From Thermomicrobiales bacterium (lineage in GTDB: Bacteria; Chloroflexota; Chloroflexia; Thermomicrobiales; JALYUS01), in contig JBBRMX010000003.1 in NCBI GenBank assembly GCA_038230615.1, forward strand, positions 1-40,006: a stretch of DNA of 40,006 nucleotides, given 5' to 3'. Under the pieces are notes generated by a model. It was given only the letters and a program-made list of their open reading frames with translations, searched no databases and was not told the origin of the DNA. Each line of letters begins with the position of its first letter. Position 1 is the stretch's first letter. Below are positions 1,561 through 4,329 of the stretch, piece by piece. Position numbers and translations under genes: made by a program.

Positions 1561-1613
1561 ACGAATATCCCTCATGTGTTGCATATGAATGTCGCGGGGA
1601 TTTCTCCCGAACG

Positions 1614-1642
1614 AGTGTAGCCGAAACCCGCGTGTGCGGCAA
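1614..1642 (-). promoter_or_regulatory. Putative sigma70-type promoter for purA
   Basis: TTGCCG-N17-TACACT on the minus strand. Confidence 0.55.
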
Positions 1643-1681
1643 ATCTGCGGTATGCTCCGGGAGTACGGAAGGGGATTCTCG

Positions 1682-2464
1682 ATGCTACTCGCCGTGAATA
1701 TCAACAATACGCATGTCAAACTGGGGCTCTACGCCGATGACGCGGGCGACGATGCTCGCCCGCTGCAACTCTGGCGGGTCGCTACCGACCGCGCCCGCAC
1801 CGCCGATGAATGGTGGGTGCAACTAGCAACGCTGCTCACGACGGGCGGCTACGCGCCAGACCGCATCACGGCAGCAGTGATCGCTTCGGTCGTGCCACCG
1901 GTGACGGGACAATGGCGGGTGGTATGCGAACGACACCTCCGTATCGCGCCGCAAGTCGCAGACACCGCGAACAGTTCTGTTCGTATCGGCACTGACCGCC
2001 CTTCCGAGAATGGCGCGGACCGCGTGATGAATGTGCTTGGCGGCTATGCGCGCTATGGCGGCCCGCTTATCATCGTGGACCTCGGCACCGCGACGACCTT
2101 CGATTGCGTCAACGCAGCGGGCGACTTGATCGGCGGGGCAATCTCGCCGGGGTTGATGCTCTCGTTTGAGGCACTGGCGAGCCGCGCCGCACTGCTATTC
2201 ACAGTCGAGCTTGCACACCCGCCGCATGCCATCGGCACAAACACGGTAGATCAACTGAACAGCGGTGTCGTGCTCGGCTACACGTCACTCGTGGAGGGAT
2301 TGTGCGCCCGTCTCGCCCGCGAGATGGACGCTGCCGAGGGCGTACCGCGAATCATCGGCACGGGTGGCTTAGCACCGCTCATCGCGGGCGGCACTGACCT
2401 GTTCGCCGCCGTGGACGACGATTTGACGCTCTACGGCATGTATTTGCTGCACCGTCGGGGGTAG
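1682..2464 (+). CDS. coaX: Type III pantothenate kinase
   Basis: GADR, VDLGTATTFD, GGAISPG and GTGG motifs. The N-terminal motif reads VNINNT rather than hDhGNT. Confidence 0.92.
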   Translation: MLLAVNINNTHVKLGLYADDAGDDARPLQLWRVATDRARTADEWWVQLATLLTTGGYAPDRITAAVIASVVPPVTGQWRVVCERHLRIAPQVADTANSSVRIGTDRPSENGADRVMNVLGGYARYGGPLIIVDLGTATTFDCVNAAGDLIGGAISPGLMLSFEALASRAALLFTVELAHPPHAIGTNTVDQLNSGVVLGYTSLVEGLCARLAREMDAAEGVPRIIGTGGLAPLIAGGTDLFAAVDDDLTLYGMYLLHRRG

Positions 2465-2523
2465 GCAATCGCCCCGCCACTCGGTACACTTGTGTTACGT
2501 GGCACACTGAAGGAGCCTGACCG

Positions 2524-3177
2524 ATGGCAACGACGCGCCCCGCACAACCAACACAAGCCTTTCCTCTCCAAGCCGCCTCGCGGCTGGCGGGCGCGGCGTT
2601 GCTTGTCGGGCTGGTGGGGGTGTTGCTCGTCCATTATTTCGGGGCTGATGACGCGAGTTACAGCCCGCCCACAACCCCCGGCGACCGCGCCCCTGTTCGT
2701 GTCGGTGAACGTGCGCCGGATTTCACCCTGACCGACGCGCAAGGCAACCCCGTGACGCTCTCGAAGTATCGCGGGCAACCGGTTGTGCTCATCTTCTACC
2801 GGACATTTGGCTGAGCGCACTGTATGGCGCAGCTCGGTGGGCTGCAAGACGAATTGGGGGCGATCCGCAACATGGGCGGCGATGTCGTCGCCATTAGCGC
2901 GGACGATCAGCAGAGCTTGCGCCCCGGCGTAACAGGTGCGGCGGCGCACGGCATCGCCTTTGTTACCCTCTCCGATCCCAACCGCACCGCGATCCATGCG
3001 TATGGTCTGCTCAACCCGCAGGATGTGCTCGTACCCGTTGAGGGTGGTCTCGCCTACCCGACAACGCTCATTCTCGACCGAGACGGGGTCGTGCGCTGGC
3101 GGTATATCGGGCGCGATGTCGGCGACCGCCCCGAAACCGCAACCGTGCTGCGGGAACTGAAGCGATTGACGGGGTAA
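2524..3177 (+). CDS. Membrane-anchored peroxiredoxin-like (AhpC/TSA/redoxin) selenoprotein; in-frame TGA at 2812-2814 read as Sec (UxxC)
   Basis: ORFs 2524-2814 and 2824-3177 are in the same frame. Joined they read ...VGERAPDFTL...VVLIFYRTFG-U-AHC-MAQL...AISAD...PTTLILDRDGVVRW, a complete thioredoxin-fold Prx-like domain after an N-terminal hydrophobic helix. Confidence 0.85.
2829..2845 (+). promoter_or_regulatory. Candidate bacterial SECIS hairpin
   Basis: GCAGCTC-GGT-GGGCTGC: 7-bp stem, G-initiated apical loop separated from the TGA by 21 nt. Confidence 0.65.
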
Positions 3178-3228
3178 ATCTGCCCGCGCCGCCTTCCCGA
3201 AGCGAGAAAGCGGCGGGAGCGGAAGATG

Positions 3229-4329
3229 CTAATCCCCCAAAAATTCGAGATCGTGCGTCCCAATGCCGCGTGCGATGGCTTCCGCGAGCAGCAGTGCGTG
3301 CGCGGCATCGTTCAGATCGAGCATTTCGACGGGCGAATGCGAGTAACGGCGGGCAAGATTGAGGGTTGCGATTGGAATGCCGCCGCGCACACGATGCATC
3401 GTTGCGGCATCGGTGTTCGCGCCGGGAAGCACGATAGGTTGCAGCGGGATTCCCTCGCGCTCTGCAGTATCAGTGACGAGGCGTACCATTTGCGGCGGCA
3501 TGAGATGCCCACTCCCGCCCCCGCCCGATAGGAGCCGCAACACTGGCCCCGCCCCGATGCGGGCATTGAGATCGAGCAGCAAACTGAGGTCGGGCGTATC
3601 GCCGGAGGGCATCGTGTCAATCACGATGGCATAATCGGGGTTCATACGGTACGCCAGCACTTCCGCACCGCGCAACCCGACTTCCTCCTGCACCGCCACC
3701 GCGCATGTCAGTGTGCCGCCGAGCGCAACGCCCTGTAGCCGTTCCAGCAGATGCACGAGGATGGCGCACGAGATGCGGTTGTCTACCGCTTTGCCGTACA
3801 CGCGGTCGCCGTTTGTCAGTTCGTCGAGCGGGGCATCGTAGGTGATCTGTGTGCCGGTACGAATGCCGAGGGCGGTCACCTCGTCGCGGCTGTCGTAGCC
3901 GGCATCAATATATAAGTCGCGGATGCGCGGCACACGCAATTGCTCATCGGCGGACTGTAAATGCCCCGATTTGATACCGACAATCCCCGGCACACCGCCG
4001 ACGCGCACCTTGCGCCCGACAAGCAGCGTCTCCACTACGCCACCGTTCTTGGCGAAGCGGATTTTTCCGTCCGCATCCACTACCGTAACCAAGCCACCGA
4101 TCTCATCGGAGTGCGCCGCGATGAGCAGATGTGGGCCGCCCGCCGCGCCGTGCTTGGTCGCAAGCACATTGCCCATCCGATCCACCGTCACCTCGTCCAC
4201 GAGCGGCGCGAGACGGTCGCGGAGCCAGCGTACTACCGCCGTTTCCTGCCCCGCGACGCCATCGAGCGCGGTCAGTGCGCGCAAAGTTTCCTTGATCTGT
4301 CCCTTCAGTGCCGCGTCTGCCTGCTTCAT
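3229..4329 (-). CDS. M42 family metallo-aminopeptidase
   Basis: AAHSDEIG, KAVDNR, VQEEVGLRGA and RYSHSPVE motifs. Confidence 0.92.
   Translation of the reverse strand: MKQADAALKGQIKETLRALTALDGVAGQETAVVRWLRDRLAPLVDEVTVDRMGNVLATKHGAAGGPHLLIAAHSDEIGGLVTVVDADGKIRFAKNGGVVETLLVGRKVRVGGVPGIVGIKSGHLQSADEQLRVPRIRDLYIDAGYDSRDEVTALGIRTGTQITYDAPLDELTNGDRVYGKAVDNRISCAILVHLLERLQGVALGGTLTCAVAVQEEVGLRGAEVLAYRMNPDYAIVIDTMPSGDTPDLSLLLDLNARIGAGPVLRLLSGGGGSGHLMPPQMVRLVTDTAEREGIPLQPIVLPGANTDAATMHRVRGGIPIATLNLARRYSHSPVEMLDLNDAAHALLLAEAIARGIGTHDLEFLGD

What the first reader, a model, noticed from the sequence alone, without database searches (positions are those of the whole stretch)
2524..3177. Hidden selenoprotein: membrane-anchored Prx-like protein with UxxC and a SECIS-like hairpin
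Seen: two adjacent same-frame ORFs are separated by a single TGA (2812-2814) at the first redox-Cys position (FYRTFG-TGA-AHC). A GCAGCTC-GGT-GGGCTGC hairpin follows, with a G-initiated loop after a 21-nt spacer. Known: Prx-like/AhpC-TSA proteins use CxxC here, Sec forms exist, and bacterial SECIS elements lie just 3' of the UGA. Inference: one 217-aa Sec protein whose N-terminal helix may anchor or export it, implying Sec machinery elsewhere in the genome. Standard gene callers would split it or call it a pseudogene.
Basis: partly seen in the sequence, partly recalled or inferred. Interest (0 to 1): 0.8.

Follow-up and report, generated by a model that had tools for sequence, protein, structure and literature searches.

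The report
Membrane-anchored selenocysteine Prx-like redox protein
The in-frame TGA is very probably read as selenocysteine, so the two small ORFs are one 217-residue membrane-anchored redox protein of an already described selenoprotein family that gene callers cut in two.

Summary
TGA 2812-2814 lies in frame inside one AhpC/TSA domain that spans it, at the first position of a U-A-H-C motif. A 7-bp hairpin (2829-2845) with a GGU loop follows 21 nt after the codon.

The selenoprotein reading is strongly supported:
- The genome (a 94% complete Thermomicrobiales/Chloroflexota-like MAG) has selB, a Sec-containing selD, tRNA-Sec (anticodon tca) and a contig-cut selA.
- Two syntenic orthologues (about 61% identity) keep the TGA and a base-for-base identical hairpin.
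- dN/dS downstream of the TGA is 0.17-0.27.
- A 68%-identical orthologue carries Cys at this position.
- Across 107 homologous loci, 36 of 50 TGA forms pass my hairpin rule, against 3 of 57 Cys/Ser/Thr forms.

The protein lacks the peroxiredoxin Thr and Arg. It is therefore a thioredoxin-like UxxC oxidoreductase with a Prx fold, behind an N-terminal transmembrane helix.

This is the published "Prx-like thiol:disulfide oxidoreductase" selenoprotein family (PF00578, UxxC). It is a new member of a known kind, mis-annotated as two ORFs. Its substrate, its topology and actual selenium incorporation remain inferred.

The parts
2510..2515 (+). Shine-Dalgarno-like AAGGAG, 8 nt before the start codon
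   Evidence: Read directly from the sequence. No comparable site precedes ATG 2824.
2524..3177 (+). Single coding sequence of 217 codons plus the TAA stop, with Sec at codon 97
   Evidence: Pfam AhpC-TSA scores 2.6e-29 over residues 60-192, across the TGA. dN/dS is 0.11-0.24 upstream and 0.17-0.27 downstream of the TGA.
2569..2643 (+). N-terminal hydrophobic helix (residues 16-40), a predicted membrane anchor or signal sequence. A low-confidence linker at residues 42-52 follows it.
   Evidence: The AlphaFold model has a helix at 16-40 and pLDDT below 50 at 42-52. The Kyte-Doolittle 19-residue maximum is 2.22 at residues 21-39. Arg/Lys residues lie before the helix and Asp residues after it in the orthologues.
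2701..3099 (+). AhpC/TSA (Prx/thioredoxin-fold) domain
   Evidence: The best structural matches are Bcp4 (3hjp) and AhpE, with target-normalised TM-scores of 0.88-0.90.
2812..2814 (+). UGA read as selenocysteine (U97), the first residue of the U-A-H-C redox motif
   Evidence: The TGA sits at the same codon in both syntenic orthologues, and Cys sits there in the 68%-identical orthologue P0006. This column and C100 are invariant (U or C) in 35 aligned homologues.
2821..2823 (+). Cys100, the resolving cysteine of UxxC. It aligns with the peroxidatic Cys of true peroxiredoxins.
2829..2845 (+). bSECIS-like hairpin with a 7-bp stem and a GGU loop at 2836-2838
   Evidence: It is identical in the 3 orthologues. 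In 9 homologues 96.8% of cells are paired, against 17-52% when the partner is slid, and one G-C to A-U compensatory pair is seen. 36 of 50 Sec forms against 3 of 57 non-Sec forms pass the hairpin rule.
3058..3060 (+). Pro179, at the position of the peroxiredoxin catalytic Arg. It is probably the cis-Pro of thioredoxin-fold oxidoreductases.
   Evidence: The HMMER alignment to BCP 2cx3 places the Prx Arg opposite this Pro. Pro is present here in most of the 35 aligned homologues. The cis conformation is inferred, not measured.

Best explanation
Bases 2524-3177 are one gene for a 217-residue selenoprotein. During translation, SelB carrying Sec-tRNA(Sec) binds the hairpin at 2829-2845, just 3' of UGA 2812-2814, and inserts selenocysteine instead of terminating. 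This step is inferred from the standard bacterial mechanism. The product has three parts: an N-terminal transmembrane helix (about residues 16-40), a short flexible Pro/Thr-rich linker, and a Prx-fold thioredoxin-like domain with the active site U97-A-H-C100. The positive charges before the helix predict that the N-terminus stays inside and the catalytic domain faces outward. The nucleophilic selenolate would attack a substrate disulfide (or an oxidant), forming a selenenylsulfide with Cys100 that is then recycled. The protein would thus act as a membrane-tethered thiol/selenol-disulfide oxidoreductase, comparable in layout to ResA or TlpA. It belongs to the described 'Prx-like thiol:disulfide oxidoreductase' selenoprotein family. 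Shown here: the gene is one unit under selection, the UGA and hairpin are conserved, and the Sec machinery is present. Inferred: actual Se insertion, the topology, and the substrate.
For: One domain spans the TGA.

Sec machinery is present in the same genome:
- selA reaches 233 bits for the half left at a contig edge.
- selB reaches 334 bits, over its cut-off.
- selD reaches 353 bits and has one in-frame TGA, in the context GCAG-U-ASK.
- tRNA-Sec reaches 62.9 bits with anticodon tca.

TGA is otherwise an ordinary stop: it ends 561 of 1511 long open frames.

Orthologues:
- G008 and G011 (about 61% identity, coaX upstream in both) keep TGA at the same codon.
- dN/dS downstream of the TGA is 0.17-0.27 at dS 0.9-1.3.
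- All 5 fully stem/loop codons are identical in the three genes, against 29 of 86 conserved-residue codons elsewhere. Fisher p = 0.025 when 5 of 6 codons are counted.
- The Cys orthologue P0006 reads ...FG-C-GHC-MTQLSELQ, whereas all 5 Sec forms seen read QLGGLQ. So the Gly-Gly follows the RNA rather than the protein.

Wider homologues:
- Of 29 aligned loci in relatives, 15 have TGA, 9 Cys and 5 Ser/Thr.
- Of 80 loci from other phyla, 37 have TGA, 17 Cys, 25 Ser/Thr and 1 is misaligned.
- 36 of 50 Sec forms against 3 of 57 non-Sec forms pass the hairpin rule.
- Mean fold energy is -13.1 kcal/mol for Sec forms against -8.1 for the rest.

Fold and anchor. A CcdA/DsbD-type membrane electron carrier exists in the genome.

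The family is in print: PMC1088965, PMC1794560, PMC9312934, PMC13188914 (passages read).
Against: - There is no direct evidence of selenium in the protein or of expression.
- selA is seen only as a C-terminal half at a contig edge, below the full-length cut-off.
- The hairpin in this one sequence is not statistically unusual.
- The covariation is thin: one compensatory pair, carried by three related rows, two of them from unpublished genomes.
- Homologues are kin, so the p-values overstate the case.
- 14 of 50 Sec forms fall short of my -7.5 kcal/mol rule.
- The independent run X2 does not cover 2781-2817, so the TGA is confirmed only in the probable source run.
- Topology rests on hydropathy, charge distribution and an AlphaFold helix, with no dedicated predictor.
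- No redox partner gene is adjacent.
- No NCBIfam model reaches its cut-off.
Confidence: 0.85

Rival explanations
1. The same Sec protein acts mainly as a peroxidase rather than a disulfide oxidoreductase. U97 would be oxidised by peroxide to a selenenic acid and resolved by Cys100, as in glutathione peroxidases, whose Sec occupies the equivalent position of the thioredoxin fold.
For: The fold and the best sequence and structure matches are peroxiredoxins: BCP, Bcp4 and AhpE. Public sources name the nearest named relatives 'peroxiredoxin'. That the GPx Sec is structurally equivalent to the first Cys of CxxC is recalled knowledge, not tested here.
Against: The peroxiredoxin Thr/Ser (replaced by U97) and Arg (replaced by Pro179) are missing. 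The UxxC motif plus Pro layout is that of thioredoxin-like oxidoreductases. PMC1088965 separates this UxxC family from the TxxU peroxiredoxins.
Confidence: 0.25
2. The TGA is a real stop: the gene is a pseudogene, carries a recent nonsense mutation, or contains a sequencing or assembly error, and only a 96-residue fragment or nothing is made.
For: Gene callers treated it this way, and both halves are filed as separate proteins. The independent run X2 does not cover the codon. TGA is the commonest stop of long frames in this genome.
Against: TGA sits at the same codon in two other genomes from other assemblies at about 61% identity. Further split Sec forms, P0007 and P0008, exist. Purifying selection continues downstream. 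The hairpin is conserved base for base. The position is the catalytic Cys of homologues. The source contig shows no variant.
Confidence: 0.04
3. TGA is recoded, but not to Sec: either a genome-wide reassignment (Trp or Gly) or near-cognate read-through.
For: None was found beyond the open frame itself.
Against: TGA ends 561 of 1511 long frames in the genome. Homologues have Cys, not Trp or Gly, at this column. A tRNA-Sec with anticodon tca, selB and selD are present. The hairpin is tied to the TGA forms.
Confidence: 0.01
4. The N-terminal hydrophobic segment is a cleaved signal peptide, giving a soluble secreted enzyme, rather than a permanent anchor.
For: Sec-form homologues in Acidobacteriota MAGs have typical short signal peptides ending in ...AQA or ...AQ.
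Against: In this protein and its orthologues the hydrophobic stretch is long: about 19-25 residues. By eye I saw no small-x-small cleavage motif after it, and no predictor was run. Either way the domain would be extracytoplasmic.
Confidence: 0.25

Closest known systems
Prx-like thiol:disulfide oxidoreductase selenoprotein family (PF00578, UxxC/UxxU). It appears in the tables of PMC9312934 and PMC13188914, as 22 Sargasso Sea sequences in PMC1088965, and as 32 genes in 28 organisms in PMC5029168.
   Same: It has a PF00578 domain, a UxxC motif in place of the peroxiredoxin TxxU or TxxC, Cys-containing homologues, and a bSECIS-like hairpin with a G in a small apical loop immediately 3' of the UGA.
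   Different: This is a narrow Thermomicrobiales/Chloroflexia sublineage. It is only about 30-42% identical to the Acidobacteriota and Methylomirabilota Sec forms found here. The dipeptide is A-H (x-His-Cys) rather than the common P-F/Y/W, and there is a long N-terminal membrane helix. I could not see the papers' supplementary lists, which may already include such members.
SelL-related redox protein (NCBIfam NF040769)
   Same: It is the best NCBIfam match, with E = 1.8e-17 over residues 63-163.
   Different: The score of 63.5 bits is far below the curated 120-bit cut-off, so this is not a member by NCBI's rule.
Membrane-anchored extracytoplasmic thiol-disulfide oxidoreductases ResA, TlpA and CcmG
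   Same: The layout is the same: an N-terminal anchor followed by a thioredoxin-fold CxxC domain with a Pro loop. There are weak sequence matches to ResA structures (E 1e-8 to 1e-6) and to NCBIfam ResA and TlpA. A CcdA/DsbD-type partner is in the genome.
   Different: Scores are far below the cut-offs: ResA 49 against 170 bits, TlpA 26.8 against 230. Sec replaces the first Cys. No cytochrome c maturation genes are adjacent. The closest folds are peroxiredoxins rather than ResA.
Peroxiredoxins of the BCP/PrxQ and AhpE types
   Same: They share the fold (target-normalised TM-score 0.88-0.90 to 3hjp and AhpE) and are the best solved sequence relatives (2cx3, E = 6e-13). Cys100 aligns with the peroxidatic Cys.
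   Different: The catalytic Thr/Ser is replaced by Sec and the catalytic Arg by Pro, so the peroxiredoxin active-site triad is absent.
Bacterial SECIS elements (E. coli fdhF type; the bSECISearch consensus, recalled and not read here)
   Same: A stem-loop starts within the coding sequence a few nucleotides after the UGA, with a small apical loop beginning with G about 20-25 nt downstream. [quoted passage not shown]
   Different: The stem is short (7 bp) with a 3-nt loop and no bulged U. SelB binding is untested. Rfam has no model that matches.

Membership tests
Bacterial selenoprotein gene (SelB/SECIS-dependent UGA recoding) | In-frame UGA at a position where homologues carry Cys | tested here: met
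   The Cys orthologue P0006 is 68% identical. 9 of 29 loci and 17 of 80 loci have Cys at this column. The column is invariant U/C in 35 sequences.
Bacterial selenoprotein gene (SelB/SECIS-dependent UGA recoding) | Stem-loop immediately 3' of the UGA with a small G-containing apical loop, conserved among Sec forms | tested here: met
   The thresholds used are my own, modelled on recalled bSECISearch criteria.
Bacterial selenoprotein gene (SelB/SECIS-dependent UGA recoding) | selA, selB, selC and selD present in the genome | tested here: met
   selA is only a contig-cut half (233 bits, below the 268-bit cut-off for the full length).
Bacterial selenoprotein gene (SelB/SECIS-dependent UGA recoding) | Coding constraint continues downstream of the UGA | tested here: met
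   dN/dS is 0.17-0.27 over 84-120 codons in three pairwise comparisons.
Bacterial selenoprotein gene (SelB/SECIS-dependent UGA recoding) | Selenium actually incorporated (75Se labelling or mass spectrometry) | not testable with these tools
   No RNA run was listed, and the reads available were contigs only.
Prx-like thiol:disulfide oxidoreductase selenoprotein (PF00578, UxxC) | PF00578 domain above the gathering score | tested here: met
   102.1 bits against a 26-bit cut-off.
Prx-like thiol:disulfide oxidoreductase selenoprotein (PF00578, UxxC) | UxxC motif whose Cys aligns with the peroxidatic Cys, instead of TxxC or TxxU | tested here: met
   U97-A-H-C100. Ser/Thr of true Prx aligns with U97. 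The family definition comes from PMC1088965 and PMC9312934.
Peroxiredoxin (catalytically defined) | The PxxxT/SxxC motif and the conserved catalytic Arg | tested here: not met
   The sequence reads FYRTFG-U-AHC: Arg replaces the Pro and Sec replaces the Thr/Ser. The Prx Arg aligns with Pro179.
SelL-related redox protein NF040769 | Score at or above the curated cut-off (120 bits) | tested here: not met
   63.5 bits.
ResA/TlpA-type extracytoplasmic oxidoreductase | NCBIfam model score over its cut-off | tested here: not met
   ResA scores 49 against 170 bits, and TlpA 26.8 against 230.
ResA/TlpA-type extracytoplasmic oxidoreductase | N-terminal membrane anchor with the catalytic domain outside | tested here: inconclusive
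   The helix at 16-40 and the hydropathy maximum of 2.22 support a membrane segment. The orientation is inferred from the charge distribution only.

The most novel reading that the evidence does not exclude
In monoderm Thermomicrobiales this is a surface-exposed, membrane-tethered selenoenzyme. Its U-x-His-Cys motif resembles the PDI (CGHC) and DsbA (CPHC) motifs, a resemblance I recall rather than tested. This would make it an oxidising or isomerising catalyst, or an extracellular peroxide or electrophile scavenger, rather than a reductant. The lineage switches between Sec and Cys forms by gaining or losing a SECIS that is written into the QLGGLQ codons of helix alpha-1. Together with the three other UxxC TGA paralogues in the same genome, this would point to an unusually selenium-dependent extracytoplasmic redox system in a soil or sediment Chloroflexota lineage.
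Probability: 0.2. Interest if true: 0.45.

Novelty: new member of a known kind. Interest (0 to 1): 0.3.

Why it matters
In practice this is an annotation error. The public protein collection holds the gene as two fragments of 96 and 117 residues, and the same split affects its orthologues (P0007 and P0008). It also affects dozens of related genes in Chloroflexota, Acidobacteriota and Methylomirabilota MAGs. Correcting these would restore a redox enzyme and mark these soil and sediment lineages as selenium users.

Biologically the find adds a membrane-anchored UxHC sublineage with a Sec/Cys orthologue pair. That pair is convenient material for testing what Sec buys over Cys outside the cytoplasm. 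It does not change what is known about Sec decoding.

Tried and rejected
- **Whole-region fold:** I therefore moved to comparative tests.
- **Rfam:** no match at E <= 1 in 2400-3300. Rfam has no general bacterial SECIS model that hit.
- **Promoter and terminator scan:** nothing useful. There were 0 promoter-like sites, and the 2 terminator-like sites lie inside the coding sequence at about the chance level.
- **Reads:** no RNA holder was listed. X1, the probable source, matches with 0 differences. The pieces of X2 leave 2781-2817 uncovered, so the codon gets no independent read-level check.
- **Other genome searches:** the formate dehydrogenase alpha family (TIGR01553) gave only sub-threshold matches without stops, so it served no purpose as a second marker selenoprotein. 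VKOR was not found in the 94% complete genome.
- **Earlier findings of this scan:** none for this genome.
- **Literature search:** one search was rejected for a colon in a term and not repeated. The papers found sufficed.
- **L038:** it gave no tblastn hit in my script and is left out of the counts.
- **L055 and L056:** they are the same records as L023 and L024, and were dropped before the count.
- **Pseudogene, two-gene and code-reassignment readings:** rejected for the reasons given under the rival explanations.

Full report
**1. What is in the sequence**

The frame opened by ATG 2524 runs to TGA 2812-2814, and the same frame continues without a stop to TAA 3175-3177. The start is preceded by AAGGAG at 2510-2515, 8 nt upstream. 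Read through, the frame gives 217 residues with the context FYRTFG-U97-A-H-C100. ATG 2824, the start of the listed second ORF, has no ribosome-binding motif before it. A perfect 7-bp hairpin GCAGCUC-GGU-GGGCUGC occupies 2829-2845, and its loop begins 21 nt after the A of the UGA.

The hairpin alone is not remarkable in this 62% G+C genome:
- The 64-nt fold has z = 0.43.
- 61 of 5711 random 30-nt windows of the window have an equally good hairpin with a G-initiated loop.
- About 16 of 868 TGA triplets are followed by one.

**2. One gene, not two**

Pfam AhpC-TSA (E = 2.6e-29) and Redoxin match residues 60-192 and 60-209, straight across the TGA. Both halves are on file in the public protein collection as separate 96-aa and 117-aa proteins without names. 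Gene callers did split the gene.

**3. Sec machinery**

The window's genome has 439 contigs and is 94.4% complete. It holds the following:
- selB at 334 bits, over its cut-off.
- selD at 353 bits, over its cut-off, with one in-frame TGA. Translation gives GCAG-U-ASK, so SelD is itself a selenoprotein.
- A tRNA-Sec at 62.9 bits, which ARAGORN calls tRNA-SeC with anticodon tca.
- The C-terminal half of selA at the edge of contig C200, at 233 bits for profile positions 215-453.

TGA is otherwise a normal stop, ending 561 of 1511 stop-to-stop frames of at least 400 codons.

**4. Orthologues**

I searched 61 genomes: the window's own genome and 60 relatives. Two relatives, G008 and G011, hold a 61-63% identical gene with exactly one TGA. 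The TGA sits at the same codon (FRTFG-U-xHC), and the gene lies downstream of the same type III pantothenate kinase gene as in the window. Their public records are MAGs titled Chloroflexia and Thermomicrobiales.

- Pairwise dN/dS is 0.11-0.24 for the 53 codons before the TGA. It is 0.17-0.27 for the 84-120 codons after it, at dS 0.9-1.6. The part after the TGA is therefore translated in this frame.
- The 17 hairpin bases are identical in all three genes, although flanking codons differ.
- Of the conserved-residue degenerate codons, 5 of 6 in the hairpin region are identical in all three, against 29 of 86 elsewhere (Fisher p = 0.025).
- The large protein search found a full-length 215-aa orthologue (P0006, 68% identity) with Cys at the position (FG-C-GHC) and TQLSELQ where the Sec forms read AQLGGLQ.
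- It also found two more C-terminal fragments that begin MAQLGGLQ (P0007, P0008). These are further split Sec forms.

**5. Wider family**

| Set of loci | TGA | Cys | Ser/Thr | Other |
|---|---|---|---|---|
| 30 from relatives (29 aligned) | 15 | 9 | 5 | L038 gave no hit |
| 80 from the species-representative genomes | 37 | 17 | 25 | 1 misaligned |

In the first set, the BLAST alignment placed 2 of the 15 TGA forms one residue off, and the 5 Ser/Thr forms are true Prx T/SxxC. In the second set, the TGA forms come from Acidobacteriota, Methylomirabilota/Rokubacteria, Binatia, Verrucomicrobiota and others.

All 15 Sec forms of the first set fold into a hairpin at the same offset. There are two classes: a triloop at +25-27 and an AGUU tetraloop at +29-32. 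Their mean energy is -13.1 kcal/mol, against -8.1 for the 14 non-Sec forms.

In a 9-sequence alignment of the triloop class, 96.8% of cells pair, against 17-52% when the 3' partner is slid by 1-3 columns. One pair changes G-C to A-U in three rows, and one changes U-A to U-G.

I then applied a rule of my own, modelled on recalled bSECISearch criteria:
- a perfect stem of at least 5 bp;
- a loop of 3-8 nt with G among its first two bases;
- the loop beginning 17 to 38 nt from the U of UGA, counting that U as 1;
- an energy of -7.5 kcal/mol or lower.

By this rule 36 of 50 Sec forms pass, against 3 of 57 others. Every one of the 50 has at least a 5-bp hairpin whose loop starts at +20 to +29 on the same count. 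The sequences are kin, so these statistics overstate independence.

Two of the relatives used (G002 and G006, loci L042 and L034) are unpublished genomes. They contribute two of the three rows with the compensatory A-U pair (the third, G010, is public). They also contribute two units to the counts, and L034 is one row of alignment A3. No conclusion depends on them alone.

**6. What kind of protein**

- The model (pLDDT 85.7, 35-sequence alignment) has a helix at 16-40, a low-confidence linker at 42-52 and a compact Prx/thioredoxin fold from 58 to 217.
- Its best PDB matches are Bcp4 (3hjp) and AhpE, with target-normalised TM-scores of 0.88-0.90.
- By sequence the best solved relative is the BCP of Aeropyrum pernix, E = 6e-13.
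- The peroxiredoxin triad is nevertheless absent. The Thr/Ser of T/SxxC aligns with U97, and the catalytic Arg aligns with Pro179.
- U/C97, C100, L104 and D151 are invariant in 35 homologues, and R93 and R202 nearly so.
- The protein is thus a thioredoxin-type UxxC oxidoreductase on a Prx scaffold.
- The best NCBIfam model is the SelL-related redox protein, at 63.5 bits against a cut-off of 120. All other models are also below their cut-offs.

**7. Location**

Residues 21-39 have a 19-residue Kyte-Doolittle mean of 2.22. The segment before the helix carries 2-4 Arg/Lys residues in the four orthologues, and the segment after it carries Asp residues. I read this as N-in/C-out; it is an inference.

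Related Sec forms elsewhere carry classical signal peptides or multi-span N-terminal domains, while others have none. Extracytoplasmic location therefore recurs in the family.

A CcdA/DsbD-type membrane protein that could supply electrons is in the genome, and VKOR was not found. The neighbours are coaX upstream and a convergent aminopeptidase-like gene downstream, which say nothing about the substrate.

**8. Comparison with what is known**

I read the following passages:
[quoted passage not shown] - PMC1794560 lists 'Prx-like thiol:disulfide oxidoreductase' in Geobacter, Syntrophus and Desulfotalea, and counts 3 selenoproteins in Chloroflexi.
- PMC5029168 counts 32 genes in 28 organisms.
- The tables of PMC9312934 and PMC13188914 give PF00578, UxxC/UxxU, 'predicted with high confidence'.

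The gene meets both defining features of that family. I did not find Thermomicrobiales or Chloroflexi named for this family in the passages searched. The supplements, which may list such members, were not available to me.

**9. Verdict**

This is a real, correctly spotted selenoprotein gene of a known family that the automatic annotation split in two. The mechanism of Sec insertion is the standard one and is well supported by comparative evidence. Selenium incorporation, membrane topology and substrate are inferred. It is a new member of a known kind, of modest interest.

Noticed in passing
G000 contig C242:132-1052 (-), locus L010: The genome's selenophosphate synthetase SelD itself has an in-frame TGA, in the context GCAG-U-ASK. 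It is therefore a selenoprotein too.
   Followed up: partly
G000 contigs C56:579-968 (+), C222:1759-1956 (-), C67:5852-6214 (-): Three further thioredoxin/Prx-like paralogues in the same genome carry TGA at the first position of a UxxC motif (SASW-U-PFC, HLQ-U-LPC, WSDI-U-GDC). The C56 copy has a GCAACUC-GUG-GAGUUGC hairpin at the same offset. The organism seems rich in redox selenoproteins.
   Followed up: partly
Loci L092, L106, L114, L121, L127 and L133 (Terriglobia, Acidoferrum, Verrucomicrobiia, Anaerolineales and Pyrinomonadaceae MAGs): True peroxiredoxin homologues have TGA at the peroxidatic position (T-x-x-U-T-K-E-L), the known Sec-peroxiredoxin type. They appeared among the non-UxxC rows.
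   Followed up: no
Loci L066, L102, L112 and L128: Sec-form homologues are preceded in frame by a multi-span hydrophobic N-terminal region (KRSWN...). This suggests a fused membrane domain in some Acidobacteriota and Verrucomicrobiota members.
   Followed up: no
window 1589-2464 (+) and loci L023, L024: The type III pantothenate kinase-like gene lies directly upstream in all three genomes. This is conserved synteny without an obvious functional link.
   Followed up: no
window 3093-3126: A 34-base stretch also matches, with 2 gaps, a much deeper (85x) 31.7-kb contig of run X1 that runs on unlike the window on both sides. It is probably a short conserved piece from another organism in the sample.
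   Followed up: no
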